DNA from: Nitrospirota bacterium
GTDB taxonomy: Bacteria; Nitrospirota; Thermodesulfovibrionia; Thermodesulfovibrionales; JdFR-88
NCBI GenBank assembly: GCA_021813405.1
Contig: JAKAKS010000009.1
Coordinates: 26,390 to 90,389, forward strand
DNA length: 64,000 bases
Reading direction: 5' to 3'
Shown here: positions 35,070 through 39,494 of the stretch, in pieces
Numbering within the stretch: position 1 is the stretch's first letter
Layout: each line of letters starts with the position of its first letter
The notes under the pieces: generated by a model
What the model was told of the DNA's origin: nothing
The model's database searches: none
The model's input: the letters and a program-made list of their open reading frames with translations, nothing else
Program-made: the position numbers and the translations under genes

Positions 35070-38000
35070 TTGCCCTGTTTTGATAATACTAATAATATGG
35101 CCATTAATGAGATATGTGCACTTAATTACCTGGCTGGCACGCTGGCAACGGCGTACAAGGGGCTTGTTACCTCGCTCCTGGCCAAGGACTTCTGCATATG
35201 CGAGGAAGGCGGCACGGCCATACTCAGGGGGACAGTCCTTGGCATGCCGGCGGGGGACTACAAGGCCGCGCTTATCCATGGCGGCGTGGAGCTTGCCCGC
35301 GCCCCGCTTAAAGACGGTTTTTTCGAGGTGCGCACCCCCGCTGTAAAGTTATTGGAGGCCAGGAATCTCCAGATAGACATCGTCCAGAACGGCAGGCATG
35401 TAGGCACTTTCCTTTTAAAAAAGCATGAGGCGGGGGTGTACTATACCCCGGCGATAGAGCTGTCCAGGGAACTCTCCGGGCTGAACCCGATGGCCCTTAC
35501 CGGGCCGCTTGCCTCCAGGCCCGGCCTGCTGCGGCGCGCCGAAGATGTTATAGCCAGCATAAGCTCCACAAAAAAGGACTGGATAAAACTTTCCGAGGAC
35601 CTGCACGGGCTTTCCATAGACATCTTCTGGGCCGACAGAGACACTTTCTACAGCTCTTTCAGCCTTCTTGTGCGCTTTTTGTGGCTGGCCGCTTCGGGGA
35701 AACGGTGCGCGAAGGGCGCACAGGGCAGGGCCGCGGCAAACGCGCTGGATGTCATAATGCTTCCGCTTGATAAGGAAGAGGACGCCGGAAGGCTCCATAG
35801 CGCGGCGGCCGTATGGGCGGCAAACGCGGCAGCCTCCGGGGCCGATCTCTCCATGGAACCATTCAGGGCGCTCCGGGTTATTACCCTGCTTAAAAACAGA
35901 TTCCCGGATATGGATGCAATGCCGATTGCAACAAAACTGATCGAGGACCTTAAGAAGCGGACCGTGGCTGTGCAGGCGCTTCCGCCGGAGGTAATCGAAC
36001 TTGTAAAGGCGGCAAACATCCCGCAGGGGCAGATGGCCACGCTTCTGCGCTATTCGGAGGCAGGAAAGCCGGAGCTTTTGCAAAAGATTGAACACGCGCT
36101 TTCTCTGATAAAATCCGGGCGCGTGGATGAGGCGGTAAAAGAGGCGTCCGGGCTGGACCTCTCCATACTTGAAGGCGAGGGAGGGGTCAAAAACCTGATA
36201 GACACCGCCCGCGCAAACCTAAGCCCTGGAAATGCCGCCGCGCTTGCAGGGGCGGTTATGGGATTGCTTGGGGGTAAAAAGATTTCCGCCCAGGCGCTGG
36301 AGGCCCTGCTTTCGTCTTTTCCGGAATTTTTCCGTTCGCTTGTCAGGCTTGGGCGTGGAAATGATGAAATCGGGCGGCTTGCCCTTGGCCTGCTGAAGCG
36401 CGCTTCGGCTTCCGCATCCGCCCTGGCGGAAAAAACCGTGCTGGACGGCTCAACCGCTCAGGCTGTGCTTGGTTCCGGCTTTGAAGGGCTTGCAAGCGCA
36501 TACAAAAAAATGCTGAAGGGCATTATTATCCCGGCCGCAAGGCCAAGCGGAGTTTCAAGCGAAACGTGGGCGCAGCTTGTCAATCCGCTTCATCTGCAAA
36601 GGCTGGCCGGACTCCTGGGCGTTCTGGCCGCGGGAGGCCCGGCATTACAGGATGTGCAGGCAAGCATAATCTGCAATATTTATTTGAGCGGGGCATTCGT
36701 CCCGGACGACAGGATTTTTCAGAGAAACGTTTCGGAGTATCTGAACTCGGACGCAATGCAAGGGGATTTTTTCTTTAACTATATGCTGCTAAAGAAGATA
36801 CCCGTTTTTTTCAGCGAGGTTGGGGCCACAAGCACGATAAGGGACCTTACCACGGAGATGGATTCCTGGGGCAACGACCCCGTGCTTTATTTTGTTAGAA
36901 AGCAGACCCACGTGAACGCCAGCAGCCACAACATCAGGTTGATGGAAGCCGTGATGAGGGCCTGGCTGGCCGTGGATACCGCACTCCTGAAAGATACAGT
37001 GCCCTCTGACGTGCTGGCCAGCATTAACCGGGAGATTTTCGCCTCTTATTCCCTGGCGGTAAAAGAGTTCTTTCCGGGCCAGCCCGGGGAGCAGGACTTT
37101 CAAAATCTGCTCAAAATGCCGGAGGCGGCGATAAGGGCGAAACTGGATTCCGTTAGTGCTTCAGAAGAGATGAAGCGGAAGGTTTTTCTTTTCCTGCGGG
37201 CCTACCAGGAGATAGTTAAAAAATATTCTCACGCAAGCGGCCCTCCTCCCGGAGATGGCGGCCAAAAAGAAAATGCGTTAAGCCAGGCGCTTGAAAAGAT
37301 GCGGAAGCTGAAAGACATATTTACGTCCAGCGAAAAGACCAGCGCCCAGGAAAACCTTTTTTTCAAGCGGCACATCGCCTTCGGGATACCATCGGTGCTG
37401 GGCAGCTACCGGGAGCCGAAGTTCGATGCGTTGTCGGAATTTCTGAGGCTTGAGGCCGGGGTGCGGATAATGCTGGAGGAGGTGGCGGGGGAGCTTGAAA
37501 AGACGGACCGGCCTGAGGGTCTGAGGGCCGGGCTGGAAGCGCTTTATGGGTTGAATTGCCTCTTCGGATTGCTTGGCATCCCGGATTTCCAGCTGGATGA
37601 AACATGCGCAATTATGCAAAACGCAAGGATAACGCTGTCCCAGTTGGCGGACCTCATCAGGATTTGGCAGAGGGAGCTTAAGTGGCGGGTGGAGGTTTTC
37701 AGCCGCACGTTCAGCCCGCCGCTGGCCGGGGTGATATCGCTTTATCCAAAAACGGGCCTGCCGGAAAAACTCATGGGGCTTGACCCCCAGGTAAAGGATT
37801 TTCCGGACAAGGCGGCGGACATCGTGCTGAGGGGCATGCTGGCCGAGGCAACCGGGATGACCGAGGCCGACCGGCTCCTTGCCGTTTTTACGAAGGCGGT
37901 ATCCAGGGCCATTGCCGCCAATGGAGATATTGTTTTAAATCCTGACGCCGCGCCTGTGCATACGGAGTTGTTTGACCCGGCCAGGATTACAAAAGAAGGG

Positions 38001-39494
38001 GCGATGCCACTTGCCCCCGAAATGGGAGGCAAGGCCAAAGGGCTTCTTTACCTAAATGACGCGGGGGTGGACATACCAAACTGGGTGGCATTCTCCGCCA
38101 TCAGGACGGAAGATTGCCGGGCATATACTGAAGGCAACAAATTCAGAGAGAAACTACGGGACGCCGTAGGCATACTGGAGGCACGCACCGGCAGAAAATT
38201 CGGAGGTGCGGGAAAGCCGCTATTTATCGCGGTAAGGAGCGGCTCCTATATATCCATGCCGGGCATTCTCACCTCCATACTCTATTGCGGGCTTAATCGC
38301 AACACGCTGGCCGGGTTTATATCCGAAACTGGTGACGAGCGGCTTGGCTGGGACTCCATGCGGAGATTTCTGGAGCAATATGGCGCGGCGGTCTGCGGCA
38401 TAGACACTGCCCGGTTTGAAAAGTTAAGCGGCAGGCTGATTGCTGAAAAGGCGGTTCCCTCCAGGGAGCTTCTTGACGCAAACGGAGTGAAAGAATTGGT
38501 GGAATTGTATGAATCGGAAATCAAGGCCCCCGCTGACGGGGACTGGCGCGCATGGCCCCCGCCAGATGATGTATTTGAGCAGGCGGCAAACGCTGTGTGG
38601 GCCGTTTACTCCTCGTGGTACCGGCCTAAAGCGGCCCAGTTCAGGCAGGCCATGAACATGTCGGACCGGTGGGGCACATCGGTAATGCTTATAGAGATGG
38701 TCTGCGGCAACACCCAAAAGCACGGGGCTGGCTCCTCGATGTTCTTTACAAGGAATCCGTTTACGTATGCTAAAAAACCGTTTGGTGAATTCCTTGCGCA
38801 CTCCACCGGAGAGGAGATTGCCATGGGCGGAGGCAGGGGGGTTCCCATCTCTTCGGACTCTCCAGCCCCCAATAAAAAAAGCCTGGAAGAGACAAACCCT
38901 GGGCTGTTTAAAATCCACGTGGATGCCGCGGAAAAAATCGAGCGCGCCATGGGCGGGCTGCCCCAGGAGGTTGAGGCCGCCTATATAACGCCAAATGGGG
39001 CCGGAAAATTCTATGTGGTGCAGGCCAGGCGCATGGAGCCGGGCGAGGCCGGATCTTTGAAATTCGACGAGGTCTGCGAGATGGGCTCCCGCATTATCGG
39101 ACGCGGCGCAGGCGCGGCGGGCGGCGCAGTGAGCGGAGCGGCGTCTTTTTCGTCATCGGCCGAAGAGCTGGAGGCGCTCAAAAAAAGCACTGGCGCTCCG
39201 GTGATACTTTTGAGAAGGACTGTTGGCACGGAGGACGTTTCATTGATGCCCCATATAGGGGGGCTGGTGACATCGTTTGGCGGGATAACCTCGCACGCGG
39301 CCGTGCTGGCGCAGAAATTCGGAATCGCGTCCGTTGTTGCCTGTGCTGATATGGAACTGGTGGCGGACGAAAAAGGAGGAGCACTCGGCGCGAAATTCGG
39401 AGGCACGATTATAACCGAGGGCACTCCGGTGAGCATTGATGGACGCTCCGGGCTGGTCTTCTCCGGATTCTGCCCGTTTATAGTGAGAAAATAA
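35070..39494 (+). CDS. giant PPDK/PEP-synthase-derived protein: unknown ~975-aa N-terminal region, then an ATP-grasp (PPDK_N-like) domain and a phosphohistidine swivel domain, with no PEP/pyruvate barrel
   Basis: The 1474-aa ORF starts at a TTG at 35070 or the ATG at 35097. From about nt 38000 it carries [63 protein letters not shown] and [16 protein letters not shown]. The catalytic His codon is at 39294-39296. Confidence 0.85.
   Translation: [1474 protein letters not shown]

What the first reader, a model, noticed from the sequence alone, without database searches (positions are those of the whole stretch)
35070..39494. Giant PPDK-derived 'dikinase' with a ~975-aa uncharacterised N-terminal region and no PEP/pyruvate barrel
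The last ~500 aa (nt ~38000-39494) match, block for block, the ATP-grasp nucleotide domain and the swivelling phosphohistidine domain of pyruvate phosphate dikinase / PEP synthase.
- GGKAKGL corresponds to GGKGANL.
- [27 protein letters not shown] corresponds to [21 protein letters not shown].
- [14 protein letters not shown] corresponds to [8 protein letters not shown].MVFGN.
- [15 protein letters not shown] and [16 protein letters not shown] are also present, and the catalytic His codon is at 39294-39296.

The ORF stops about 65 aa after that His, so the TIM barrel that binds PEP/pyruvate is absent. It is instead preceded by ~975 aa of Ala/Leu-rich, apparently helical sequence in which I recognise no motif. 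Known enzymes that reuse ATP-grasp plus His-swivel on a non-pyruvate substrate, such as rifampicin phosphotransferase and glucan water dikinases, pair these domains with a dedicated substrate-binding module. By analogy, the N-terminal region may specify an unknown phosphorylation target. The gene looks monocistronic. Repeat elements lie upstream and tRNA-Leu lies downstream.
Basis: partly seen in the sequence, partly recalled or inferred. Interest (0 to 1): 0.75.

Follow-up and report, generated by a model that had tools for sequence, protein, structure and literature searches.

The report
Giant barrel-less dikinase linked to GAPDH
This gene encodes a 1465-residue enzyme that keeps the ATP-binding and phosphate-carrying parts of pyruvate phosphate dikinase but swaps the pyruvate-binding part for a large helical region of unknown fold; its relatives in other bacteria almost always sit next to a glyceraldehyde-3-phosphate dehydrogenase gene, which hints at an undescribed step in central sugar metabolism.

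Summary
ORF 35070/35097..39494 (+) encodes 1465 aa. Residues ~966-1465 are a PPDK-type ATP-grasp plus phosphohistidine swivel domain with the catalytic residues intact (His1400 = 39294-39296). No PEP/pyruvate barrel exists in the protein, in the window, or near 105 related loci.

The N-terminal ~965 aa are not junk or an assembly fusion. AlphaFold models them confidently as a beta-sandwich (1-118) plus an all-helical region with no Pfam, PDB-sequence or Foldseek-PDB match.

The protein belongs to an uncharacterised family of ~395 clusters (50% identity) with two clades. Clade A is from Nitrospirota and includes this gene. Clade B is from Bacteroidales and other lineages. Both share a ~500-aa helical core (470-965) with about 40 invariant, mostly charged residues, and the core is only ever found with the dikinase module.

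New here: in clade B, a divergent long GAPDH paralogue lies directly downstream in 23 of 26 loci, often with a canonical gap directly upstream. In clade A, a canonical gap follows in 5 of ~59 loci, though not in this window.

Best reading: a His-swivel dikinase whose helical core is a new acceptor site acting at the GAPDH node, perhaps 3-phosphoglycerate/1,3-bisphosphoglycerate. The main rival is a VadK-like regulatory kinase. The substrate is inferred, not shown.

The parts
35097..39494 (+). Whole gene: 1465-aa giant barrel-less dikinase. An alternative TTG start lies at 35070. The stop codon is 39492-39494.
   Evidence: ORF list and translation. An identical protein, P0001, is in public databases, and ~50 full-length homologues exist. 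Homologue N-termini align to the ATG start.
35097..35450 (+). Residues 1-118: N-terminal beta-sandwich, specific to the Nitrospirota clade. It carries the motif [17 protein letters not shown] and invariant C7, C33 and H101. It may be a sensor or regulatory module.
   Evidence: AF2 predicts strands 4-118 at pLDDT 72-93. Invariant columns come from A1 and A7. The domain is absent from clade B: hhalign aligns only clade-A residues ~132-1465. There is no Pfam or PDB match.
35490..36503 (+). Residues ~132-469: helical region with variable sequence (Ala/Leu-rich). It is homologous to the N-terminal region of clade B.
   Evidence: AF2 predicts all helices at pLDDT mostly ~80-95, mostly above 85. Column conservation is low over residues 240-470. 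The hhalign alignment of clades A and B (probability 100%, E 3e-169) includes this stretch, although at low sequence similarity.
36504..37991 (+). Residues 470-965: conserved helical core. This is the family-defining domain and the proposed acceptor (third-site) domain that replaces the PEP/pyruvate barrel.
   Evidence: Cross-phylum alignments A4 and A6 show ~40 invariant residues at only 22-25% overall identity. They include W491, H499, D537, Q542, R582, D589, D594, R601, K602, Q603, H605, K709, Y710, E752, K757, R758, H759, E773, Q849, R912 and D925. An exhaustive profile search found 395 clusters, always with the dikinase module C-terminal to the core. No PDB or Pfam match was found.
36888..36923 (+). 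Motif [12 protein letters not shown] (residues 598-609). R601, K602, Q603 and H605 are invariant in both clades.
   Evidence: Alignments A4 and A6.
37362..37430 (+). Motif [23 protein letters not shown] (residues 756-778). This is the most conserved stretch of the family. It is predicted to be the tip of a beta-hairpin with low model confidence, so it may be a mobile catalytic or docking loop.
   Evidence: Translation. Invariant K757, R758, H759, A761, G763, I764, P765, S766, G769, Y771 and E773. AF2 predicts strands 751-757 and 766-772, with pLDDT below 50 at 758-765.
37992..39071 (+). Residues ~966-1325: PPDK-type ATP-grasp nucleotide-binding domain.
   Evidence: PPDK_N and TIGR01828 hits. 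Alignment to PPDK 1kbl residues 9-337. Foldseek gives rmsd 3.2 A to 1kbl over 547 columns together with the His domain. Invariant K979 and R1047 align, in the printed alignment, with the Lys of GGKG and the Arg of VRSG in C. symbiosum PPDK. E1291/E1293 and Q1309 (and near-invariant R1311) fall in the part of the alignment that matches PPDK's Mg/ATP-site segment. Assigning these to named PPDK residues rests on my recollection of the PPDK literature, not on a test here.
39081..39491 (+). Residues ~1329-1465: phosphohistidine swivel (PEP-utilizers mobile) domain. The protein ends 65 residues after the catalytic His.
   Evidence: Pfam PF00391 covers 1368-1452. The region aligns to PPDK residues 386-507 and to the isolated phosphoryl-carrier domain 2fm4. 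G1395, G1396, S1399, H1400 and A1401 are invariant.
39294..39296 (+). Codon cac for the catalytic His1400, in GGITSHAAV.
   Evidence: Sequence read directly. The residue aligns to the phospho-carrier His of PPDK within GGMTSHAAV.
39570..39653 (+). tRNA-Leu(CAG), the downstream neighbour. It has its own promoter-like site at 39531-39558. It is context, not part of the gene.
   Evidence: ARAGORN, Rfam and the promoter scan.

Best explanation
The gene encodes a member of an undescribed family of giant His-swivel dikinases.

Shown:
- The C-terminal ~500 aa are a PPDK-derived ATP-grasp plus phosphohistidine carrier domain.
- The ATP-site residues and the TSH histidine are conserved.
- The PEP/pyruvate TIM barrel is missing.
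- A ~830-aa helical region precedes the dikinase. Its last ~500 aa form a core conserved across phyla, rich in invariant Arg/Lys/His/Asp/Glu, and never found without the dikinase module.
- Family members are genomically coupled to GAPDH genes.

Inferred mechanism:
1. ATP pyrophosphorylates or phosphorylates His1400 at the ATP-grasp site, as in PPDK.
2. The singly tethered C-terminal His domain swings to the helical core.
3. The core replaces the barrel as the acceptor site and transfers the phosphoryl group to (or takes it from) a small anionic metabolite at the GAPDH step.

My best guess for that metabolite is 3-phosphoglycerate <-> 1,3-bisphosphoglycerate. This would be a PGK-bypassing reaction driven by ATP -> AMP + PPi/Pi, feeding or draining a partner GAPDH. 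The clade-specific N-terminal modules (the beta-sandwich here, hemerythrin in some relatives) would be regulatory.

My confidence of ~0.45 applies to the general statement: a small-molecule dikinase with a new acceptor domain working at the GAPDH node. The specific 3-PG/1,3-BPG assignment deserves only ~0.25.
For: Dikinase module intact:
- Pfam, NCBIfam and PDB alignments.
- Invariant catalytic positions in 50 clade-A and 16 clade-B sequences.
- The AF2 model of res 440-1465 has pLDDT 85 and pTM 0.84. Its dikinase part superposes on PPDK 1kbl at 3.2 A.

Barrel absent:
- No PF02896 hit.
- tblastn with PPDK barrels finds nothing in the window or in 105 family loci, except one complete canonical PPDK gene.

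Helical core looks like a functional site:
- About 40 invariant columns at 22-25% identity between phyla. They include RKQxH and KRHxAxGIPSxxGxYxE on a low-confidence hairpin tip.
- The core is found in 395 clusters and always with the dikinase.
- Clades A and B are homologous over res ~132-1465.

GAPDH linkage:
- In clade B, a long GAPDH paralogue (412-457 aa) lies directly downstream on the same strand in 23 of 26 loci with flank. Gaps range from 0-106 bp to a 4-bp overlap; the exception is L084/L085, where it lies ~1 kb downstream with a small ORF between.
- In about 7 of those loci a canonical gap lies directly upstream, often overlapping.
- In clade A, a canonical type I gap is directly downstream in 5 of ~59 loci, against roughly 0.03 expected by chance.
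- The long paralogue keeps the catalytic Cys and His. From my recollection of the GAPDH literature, it also keeps both anion-site residue sets (S148/T150/T208 and T179/R195/R231 equivalents). It should therefore make or use an acyl phosphate.

Not simply a second PPDK:
- A complete Thermodesulfovibrionales chromosome carries a canonical 889-aa PPDK 3.2 kb from its family gene.

Chemical precedent (established knowledge):
- Phosphohistidine <-> acyl-phosphate transfer occurs in succinyl-CoA synthetase and ATP-citrate lyase.
- 1,3-BPG + AMP + PPi -> 3-PG + ATP + Pi is near equilibrium by standard free energies (my calculation, about -4 kJ/mol).
Against: - No substrate is shown, and no fold match identifies the core.
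- I could not inspect model coordinates to see whether the invariant residues form a pocket facing His1400.
- In this window and in most Nitrospirota loci there is no GAPDH next to the gene. The linkage is strongest in the other clade.
- All known barrel-less relatives phosphorylate hydroxyl groups (rifampin, glucans, phenols) or act on proteins (VadK), not carboxylates.
- Sensor-like N-terminal fusions (hemerythrin) and the VadK precedent (PMC13400623) fit a signalling role as well.
- Whether these genomes lack pgk could not be tested.
Confidence: 0.45

Rival explanations
1. VadK-like regulatory kinase. The ATP-grasp/His module autophosphorylates. The helical region docks a protein partner (GAPDH or the long GAPDH paralogue, possibly a PTS-type carrier). 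The phosphoryl group or the interaction then tunes flux through the GAPDH step. The N-terminal beta-sandwich or hemerythrin acts as the sensor.
For: - VadK (Rv1127c) is a barrel-less PPDK that autophosphorylates. It is encoded next to methylcitrate-cycle genes and binds their products (PMC13400623).
- NCBIfam's PRK05878 model (NF004531, 534-position profile, about the length of a two-domain barrel-less PPDK) is the second-best hit: E 8e-60, 203 bits against a cut-off of 456. Whether VadK/Rv1127c belongs to that model was not checked here.
- Two family members carry an N-terminal hemerythrin, a domain typical of sensors.
- One lineage places the gene directly after rpoN-hpf-ptsN-rapZ-EIIA(man). 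From memory, HPr/Enzyme I genes often sit in that position.
- The tight adjacency to GAPDH genes is equally what a regulator/target pair would show.
Against: - VadK needs no ~965-aa extension.
- The core's invariant residues are mostly buried-type charged motifs (RKQxH, KRHxAxGIPS) conserved at 22-25% identity across phyla. That pattern is more typical of an active site.
- Within-clade conservation of 50-75% is enzyme-like.
- Both canonical and divergent GAPDHs are partners. This points to a shared metabolite rather than a specific protein surface.
Confidence: 0.25
2. Dikinase for a different small-molecule hydroxyl acceptor whose product feeds the GAPDH-type dehydrogenase. Candidates are glyceraldehyde -> G3P, glycerate -> phosphoglycerate, or a C4 analogue. 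This would match the chemistry of rifampin phosphotransferase, glucan water dikinase and the phenol/hydroxyphenylethanone kinases.
For: - All characterised non-pyruvate members of the superfamily phosphorylate hydroxyls (PMC4844700, PMC12167813, PMC12624787).
- Foldseek lists HpeI and RPH among the structural relatives of the dikinase part.
- The GAPDH linkage only says that the two enzymes share a pathway.
Against: - Spending two phosphoanhydride bonds on a triose kinase reaction is unusual for central metabolism.
- The partner dehydrogenase keeps the inorganic-phosphate site, so an acyl phosphate is present at that node anyway.
- No catabolic or transport genes are consistently nearby.
Confidence: 0.15
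3. Alternative PEP synthase/PPDK. The helical core is a non-homologous pyruvate/PEP-binding domain, and the enzyme is a gluconeogenic PEP-forming step co-expressed with a gluconeogenic GAPDH.
For: - The dikinase module is closest to true PPDKs.
- Some clade-B loci lie directly after Wood-Ljungdahl genes (CdhD, pterin-binding protein, DUF3786). This fits a gluconeogenic role after carbon fixation.
- Gluconeogenic gapB and the PEP-forming pckA are co-regulated in Bacillus subtilis (established knowledge).
Against: - Every known PEP/pyruvate site in this superfamily is the TIM barrel, which is absent.
- At least one genome has a full canonical PPDK 3.2 kb away.
- Translational coupling to a GAPDH is not expected for a PEP synthase.
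Confidence: 0.1

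Closest known systems
Pyruvate, phosphate dikinase (PPDK, EC 2.7.9.1; TIGR01828; e.g. Clostridium symbiosum 1kbl/1dik)
   Same: - Both have an ATP-grasp nucleotide domain and a swivelling phosphohistidine domain, at 27-31% identity (E 3e-55).
- The printed alignment shows the GGK, VRSG and TSH motifs conserved. Mapping these and the family-invariant Glu and Gln positions onto named PPDK catalytic residues (K22, R92, E323, Q335, H455) is from memory.
- The predicted structure superposes at 3.2 A.
   Different: - There is no C-terminal PEP/pyruvate TIM barrel.
- The His domain is the C-terminus, with a single tether.
- A ~965-aa region of unknown fold precedes the ATP-grasp.
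- The score is far below the family cut-off: 242 bits against 843.
VadK (Rv1127c) of Mycobacterium tuberculosis, a barrel-less PPDK derivative (PMC13400623)
   Same: - It is PPDK-derived, lacks the pyruvate/PEP domain and keeps ATP-dependent His autophosphorylation.
- Its gene sits beside the metabolic enzymes it works with.
   Different: - VadK is ~490 aa with no extra domain. This family adds ~830-965 aa with its own invariant motifs.
- The partner genes are GAPDHs, not methylcitrate-cycle enzymes.
- NF004531 scores 203 bits against a cut-off of 456.
Rifampin phosphotransferase (RPH) and the PEP-synthase-like small-molecule kinases (phenylphosphate synthase, HpeHI, MarK, glucan water dikinase)
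   Same: - The logic is the same: ATP-grasp plus His-swivel reused with a dedicated substrate-binding module in place of the barrel (PMC4844700, PMC12167813, PMC12624787).
- They are weak structural relatives of the dikinase part.
   Different: - Those enzymes derive from the PEP-synthase branch. Here the match is to PPDK.
- Their substrate domains are unrelated to the helical core. RPH NCBIfam models score 14-16 bits against cut-offs of 999-1700.
- The domain order differs: the acceptor region is N-terminal here.
Succinyl-CoA synthetase / ATP-citrate lyase (phosphohistidine to acyl-phosphate chemistry)
   Same: - If the 3-PG hypothesis holds, the chemistry is the same: an ATP-grasp site loads a mobile His, which then phosphorylates a carboxylate to an acyl phosphate (established knowledge).
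   Different: - No sequence or fold relationship was detected. The His sits on a loop of a Rossmann-like domain rather than on a PEP-utilizers swivel domain.
- This is an analogy only.

Membership tests
Pyruvate phosphate dikinase (TIGR01828) | N-terminal ATP-grasp nucleotide-binding domain with catalytic Lys/Arg/Glu/Gln | tested here: met
   PPDK_N and TIGR01828 alignments and the PDB alignment. Invariant K979, R1047, E1291, E1293 and Q1309.
Pyruvate phosphate dikinase (TIGR01828) | Central phosphohistidine swivel domain with the TSH motif | tested here: met
   PF00391 hit at E 2.9e-14. GGITSH at 1395-1400 is invariant.
Pyruvate phosphate dikinase (TIGR01828) | C-terminal PEP/pyruvate-binding TIM barrel (PF02896) | tested here: not met
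   No PF02896 hit. The protein ends 65 aa after the His. No barrel is encoded in the window or in 105 family loci, apart from one separate canonical PPDK.
Pyruvate phosphate dikinase (TIGR01828) | Whole-protein score above the curated cut-off | tested here: not met
   242 bits against a cut-off of 843.
PEP synthase (TIGR01418 / PRK06464) | PpsA-type ATP-grasp, His domain and barrel; score above the cut-off | tested here: not met
   37-44 bits against cut-offs of 598-740. Only the His-domain region aligns.
VadK-type barrel-less PPDK (NF004531 / Rv1127c) | Two-domain ~490-530-aa protein (ATP-grasp plus His domain only) scoring above the cut-off | tested here: not met
   203 bits against a cut-off of 456. 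The protein is 1465 aa with a conserved ~965-aa N-terminal region.
VadK-type barrel-less PPDK (NF004531 / Rv1127c) | ATP/Mg-dependent autophosphorylation on the His, and binding to neighbouring metabolic enzymes | not testable with these tools
   This needs biochemistry. Only the catalytic residues and the gene adjacency could be checked.
Rifampin phosphotransferase (NF000283 / NF041857) | ATP-grasp, rifampin-binding domain and C-terminal His domain; score above the cut-off | tested here: not met
   14-16 bits against cut-offs of 999-1700. Only ~35-75 residues of the His domain align.
PTS Enzyme I (TIGR01417) | HPr-binding helical subdomain, His domain and PEP-binding barrel | tested here: not met
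   11.6 bits against a cut-off of 342, and no barrel.
New family proposed here (helical core + barrel-less PPDK module) | ~500-aa helical core with invariant RKQxH and KRHxAxGIPSxxGxYxE motifs, directly N-terminal to the ATP-grasp | tested here: met
   The window protein is the first row of A4 and A6 and carries every invariant residue. It ranks second in the profile search at E 3e-187.
New family proposed here (helical core + barrel-less PPDK module) | Gene adjacency to a GAPDH or long GAPDH paralogue | tested here: not met
   No GAPDH-like sequence occurs anywhere in the 64-kb window; the neighbours are hemC and tRNA-Leu. The feature is met in 5 of ~59 clade-A loci and 23 of 26 clade-B loci. 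It is a family tendency, not a universal feature.

The most novel reading that the evidence does not exclude
The family is a previously unknown central-metabolic enzyme, a '3-phosphoglycerate dikinase'. It would interconvert 3-PG and 1,3-bisphosphoglycerate using ATP <-> AMP + PPi (or Pi) through a swivelling phosphohistidine and a new all-helical acceptor domain. The labile acyl phosphate would be channelled to a dedicated, co-transcribed GAPDH paralogue. This would be a PGK-independent and possibly PPi-linked variant of lower glycolysis/gluconeogenesis in anaerobes such as Bacteroidales and Nitrospirota.
Probability: 0.22. Interest if true: 0.9.

Novelty: new variant of a known kind. Interest (0 to 1): 0.66.

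Why it matters
Swapping the acceptor domain of the PPDK/PEP-synthase machine is how nature made rifampin phosphotransferase, starch dikinases, phenol kinases and the regulatory kinase VadK. This is another such swap, but with several unusual features:
- The new domain is very large and conserved, with no detectable relative.
- The family spans at least two phyla, in about 400 clusters.
- In most members the gene is transcriptionally welded to a distinctive GAPDH paralogue.

This gives a concrete, testable lead to either a new reaction or a new regulatory layer at the GAPDH/PGK step, one of the most conserved nodes of metabolism. The organisms concerned matter for gut, rumen, digester and sediment carbon flow. 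It also flags that these genes are currently mis-annotated as 'pyruvate, orthophosphate dikinase'.

Tried and rejected
1. **Permuted PPDK with a hidden barrel in the N-terminal region: rejected.**
- No Pfam or NCBIfam hit.
- The AF2 model is all-alpha apart from a beta-sandwich and two hairpins.
- No PDB sequence-profile hit.
- Foldseek against PDB returns only generic alpha-solenoids at E>=3e-3.

2. **Assembly fusion: rejected.** Independent full-length homologues exist, including on complete chromosomes.

3. **Barrel supplied by a separate neighbouring gene (two-component system): rejected.** tblastn with three PPDK barrels found none in the window or in 105 family loci, except one complete canonical PPDK.

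4. **Relationship to the 2349-aa enolase-dikinase fusion P0063.** Only the dikinase part is shared.

5. **Conserved operon in Nitrospirota: none.** Contexts include nuo, cox, two-component systems and hem genes. Only GAPDH recurs.

6. **pgk adjacency.** The PGK PROSITE signature is absent from all family loci. This is uninformative about genome-wide presence.

7. **Upstream repeats or an RNA element.** No direct repeats were found and no Rfam hit other than the tRNA.

8. **Searches that gave little.**
- The word-indexed profile search with the core returned mainly frameshifted fragments.
- The metagenome scan chose dikinase-module patterns and returned mostly ordinary PPDKs; only L090-L105 were useful.

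Full report
**1.

An uninterrupted ORF runs from 35070 (TTG) to 39494 on the + strand. Homologue N-termini line up with the ATG at 35097, so I number from there, giving 1465 aa.

Domain hits:
- Pfam finds only PPDK_N (1005-1225) and the PEP-utilizers mobile domain (1368-1452). PEP-utilizers_C is absent.
- NCBIfam's PPDK model aligns residues 974-1312 to its positions 16-335 at E 9e-72. At 242 bits it is far below the 843-bit family cut-off.
- Solved PPDKs (1kbl, 1dik and others) align to 967-1312 and 1329-1457 at E 3e-55.
- The catalytic histidine codon is cac at 39294-39296, and the protein ends 65 residues later.
- tRNA-Leu(CAG) lies at 39570-39653 behind its own promoter-like site.

The one detail I could not confirm is 'repeat elements upstream'. 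No direct repeats occur in 34300-35200. There is only a 12-nt perfect inverted repeat bracketing the intergenic region.

**2. It is a real, conserved protein, not a fusion artefact.**

- An identical protein is already public as 'MAG: PEP-utilizing enzyme'.
- About 50 full-length homologues of 1450-1546 aa share 39-46% identity over 99-100% of the length.
- A scan of one genome per species found 223 relatives. These include a 95%-identical fragment in a Nitrospirae MAG and genes on complete Thermodesulfovibrionales/Nitrospirota chromosomes.
- The window therefore almost certainly comes from a Nitrospirota genome, although the public record is labelled Actinomycetota.

**3. Anatomy of the N-terminal region.**

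Two AlphaFold models were built with a 50-sequence alignment:
- Residues 1-1000: pLDDT 86.5, pTM 0.74.
- Residues 440-1465: pLDDT 85.3, pTM 0.84.

The layout they give is:
- a beta-sandwich (1-118);
- a helical region of variable sequence (~132-469);
- a conserved helical core (470-965) containing only two beta-hairpins;
- the ATP-grasp (~966-1325);
- the His domain (~1329-1465).

**4. A family with two clades and a family-specific core.**

The genome scan also returned ~1365-aa proteins from Bacteroidales that match query residues ~488-1460 at 25-27% identity.
- Aligning the core across both groups shows about 40 invariant columns at 22-25% overall identity. These include W491, H499, D537, Q542, R582, D589, D594, R601-K602-Q603-x-H605, K709-Y710, E752 and K757-R758-H759-x-A-x-G-I-P-S-x-x-G-x-Y-x-E773, plus Q849, R912 and D925.
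- The [10 protein letters not shown] segment (37362-37430) is the most conserved stretch. It sits on a hairpin tip with the lowest model confidence, which is the behaviour of a mobile functional loop.
- An exhaustive HMMER search of 1.84 billion representative proteins with the core profile found 395 clusters (190 at E<=1e-30). Every hit long enough to judge carries the core in the same place, followed by the dikinase module. Shorter hits look like fragments.
- Profile-profile comparison shows the Nitrospirota clade (A) and the Bacteroidales-type clade (B) are homologous over clade-A residues ~132-1465 (probability 100%, E 3e-169). Only the beta-sandwich is specific to clade A.
- Two clade-B-like members carry an N-terminal hemerythrin domain instead.

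**5. The new clue is GAPDH.**

I clustered all ORFs from 84 loci. The only recurrent immediate neighbour is GAPDH.

Clade B (23 of 26 loci with downstream sequence, across proteins only 32-75% identical to each other):
- A divergent 412-457-aa GAPDH paralogue lies directly downstream on the same strand in 8 of 8 Bacteroidales loci with flank. The same holds in L084/85, L086, L087, L090-93, L097-102, L104 and L105.
- Spacers range from 0-106 bp to a 4-bp overlap; the exception is L084/L085, where it lies ~1 kb downstream with a small ORF between.
- In about seven of these loci a canonical 333-386-aa gap lies directly upstream, often overlapping the start codon.
- The exceptions are L088, L089 and L094.

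Clade A:
- A canonical type I GAPDH, scoring above the TIGR01534 cut-off, follows directly in L003, L012, L021, L036 and L060. That is 5 of ~59 loci.
- No other glycolytic gene is beside it.

The long paralogue:
- It scores below the GAPDH-I cut-off and carries several insertions.
- It keeps the catalytic Cys and His and, from memory of the GAPDH literature, both anion-site residue sets.
- Its nearest solved relatives are ordinary GAPDHs.
- It should therefore be a phosphorylating aldehyde dehydrogenase that makes or uses an acyl phosphate.

The window itself has no GAPDH. Its neighbours are dprA, topA, hemA, hemC, a 94-aa ORF, tRNA-Leu and an OmpR-type regulator.

**6. How it most likely works.**

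Shown:
- The ATP site and the carrier histidine are intact and under selection in both clades.
- The barrel is gone.
- A large conserved domain with active-site-like invariants is obligatorily attached.
- The family is genomically coupled to GAPDH.

Inferred:
- His1400 is loaded from ATP at the ATP-grasp, as in PPDK.
- It then swings on its single tether to the helical core, which serves as the acceptor site in place of the barrel.
- Because both ordinary and specialised GAPDHs are partners, I think the shared element is a metabolite of the GAPDH reaction.

The most economical proposal is 3-phosphoglycerate <-> 1,3-bisphosphoglycerate.
- Phosphohistidine-to-carboxylate transfer has precedent in succinyl-CoA synthetase and ATP-citrate lyase (established knowledge).
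- With PPDK-type stoichiometry the reaction would be near equilibrium by standard free energies (my estimate).
- The arrangement gap-X-gap echoes classical gap-pgk operons.

I put ~0.45 on 'small-molecule dikinase with a new acceptor domain at the GAPDH node'. I put only ~0.22-0.25 on the 3-PG/1,3-BPG assignment.

**7. Rivals.**

(a) A VadK-like regulatory kinase, ~0.25.
- For: VadK is a barrel-less PPDK that autophosphorylates, sits beside methylcitrate-cycle genes and binds their enzymes (PMC13400623). The hemerythrin fusions and a lineage placing the gene after rpoN-hpf-ptsN-rapZ-EIIA(man) fit signalling.
- Against: VadK needs no extra domain, and the core's invariants look catalytic.

(b) A hydroxyl-directed dikinase making a substrate for the dehydrogenase, ~0.15. 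This would resemble rifampin phosphotransferase, glucan dikinases or HpeHI/MarK (PMC4844700, PMC12167813, PMC12624787).

(c) An alternative PEP synthase with a non-homologous pyruvate domain, ~0.10.
- It is disfavoured because one complete genome has a canonical 889-aa PPDK 3.2 kb away.
- The barrel is otherwise universal for PEP/pyruvate in this superfamily.
- Some support comes from Wood-Ljungdahl genes directly upstream in three loci.

**8. Comparison with what is known, and novelty.**

- The protein works like the PPDK/PEP-synthase 'swivelling histidine' machines.
- It is not a member of PPDK, PEP synthase, VadK-type, RPH or Enzyme I by their defining features (barrel, curated scores, architecture).
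- No paper found describes this family or a PPi/AMP-linked PGK analogue.
- Database names are generic or wrong, for example 'pyruvate, orthophosphate dikinase'.
- I rate it a new variant of a known kind: a known phosphotransfer engine with a new, unrecognisable acceptor region and a new, strongly conserved partnership.

**9. Limits.**

- No coordinates could be inspected, so the spatial clustering of the invariant residues is untested.
- Genome-wide presence of pgk or the long GAPDH in family-bearing genomes could not be scanned.
- Loci were not de-replicated.
- The GAPDH linkage is weakest in the clade to which this window's gene belongs.

Noticed in passing
window 1-64000 (whole window); L006: The identical public protein is labelled 'Actinomycetota bacterium'. 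A 95%-identical fragment and all close homologues come from Nitrospirota/Thermodesulfovibrionales MAGs. The source MAG is probably mis-binned or mis-labelled.
   Followed up: partly
L076 9104-10357; L080 4737-6017; L084 11319-12680; L086 14128-15381; L087 8638-9876: A distinct long GAPDH paralogue family of 412-457 aa scores below the GAPDH-I cut-off. It has several insertions and paralogue-specific conserved motifs (ExHTRTG, PVTHAK before WYDNE). It is almost always encoded directly after the clade-B dikinase. I found no description of it.
   Followed up: partly
P0063 (2349 aa, JGI metagenome): This protein fuses enolase-like domains, ~1000 aa of unknown sequence and a barrel-less PPDK-type ATP-grasp/His module. 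It shares only the dikinase part with this family. It is another barrel-less dikinase tied to a lower-glycolysis enzyme.
   Followed up: partly
P0284 (L089 1166-5788) and P0268: Two family members carry an N-terminal hemerythrin (HHE cation-binding) domain. This suggests O2, iron or redox input to the enzyme.
   Followed up: partly
L014 13604-16273: A canonical full-length PPDK (889 aa, 53% identical to an alphaproteobacterial PPDK) lies 3.2 kb downstream of the family gene on a complete Thermodesulfovibrionales chromosome.
   Followed up: yes
L090, L091, L093 (upstream 4 kb): Wood-Ljungdahl pathway genes (CdhD/AcsD, a pterin-binding AcsE-like protein, DUF3786) lie directly upstream of the dikinase and long-GAPDH pair. 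DUF3786 also lies near the clade-A gene in L002.
   Followed up: no
L084/L085 1-5947; L096 336-3980: The gene follows an lptB-rpoN-hpf-ptsN-rapZ-EIIA(man)-GNAT cluster. From memory, HPr and Enzyme I genes occupy that position in some bacteria. No HPr or EI gene was seen in the stretch.
   Followed up: no
window 34373-34384 and 35057-35068: A perfect 12-nt inverted repeat (AGGGAAAGATGG / CCATCTTTCCCT) brackets the whole hemC-to-gene intergenic region, including a 94-aa ORF at 34381-34665. About 0.02 such pairs are expected by chance in 900 nt, by my estimate.
   Followed up: no
window 31320-34371; L021 2802-3776; L036 4612-5586: Heme-biosynthesis genes lie just upstream of the gene here: a cytochrome c assembly-like membrane protein, hemA and hemC. 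hemB (ALAD) lies upstream of the clade-A gene in two other loci. This is a weak recurring neighbourhood.
   Followed up: no
L021 4311-5543: A TnpB/IS605 OrfB-type (Cas12f-like TNB domain) gene lies directly upstream of the family gene in one Nitrospirota locus.
   Followed up: no
window 41217-48469: Downstream of the OmpR-type regulator (39907-40617, minus strand) lie several genes: a 483-aa putative outer-membrane protein, an EAL-domain protein, a membrane glycosyltransferase-like protein, a PHP-like protein, a family-1 glycoside hydrolase-like protein and a histidine kinase. These assignments are from reading the translations only.
   Followed up: no
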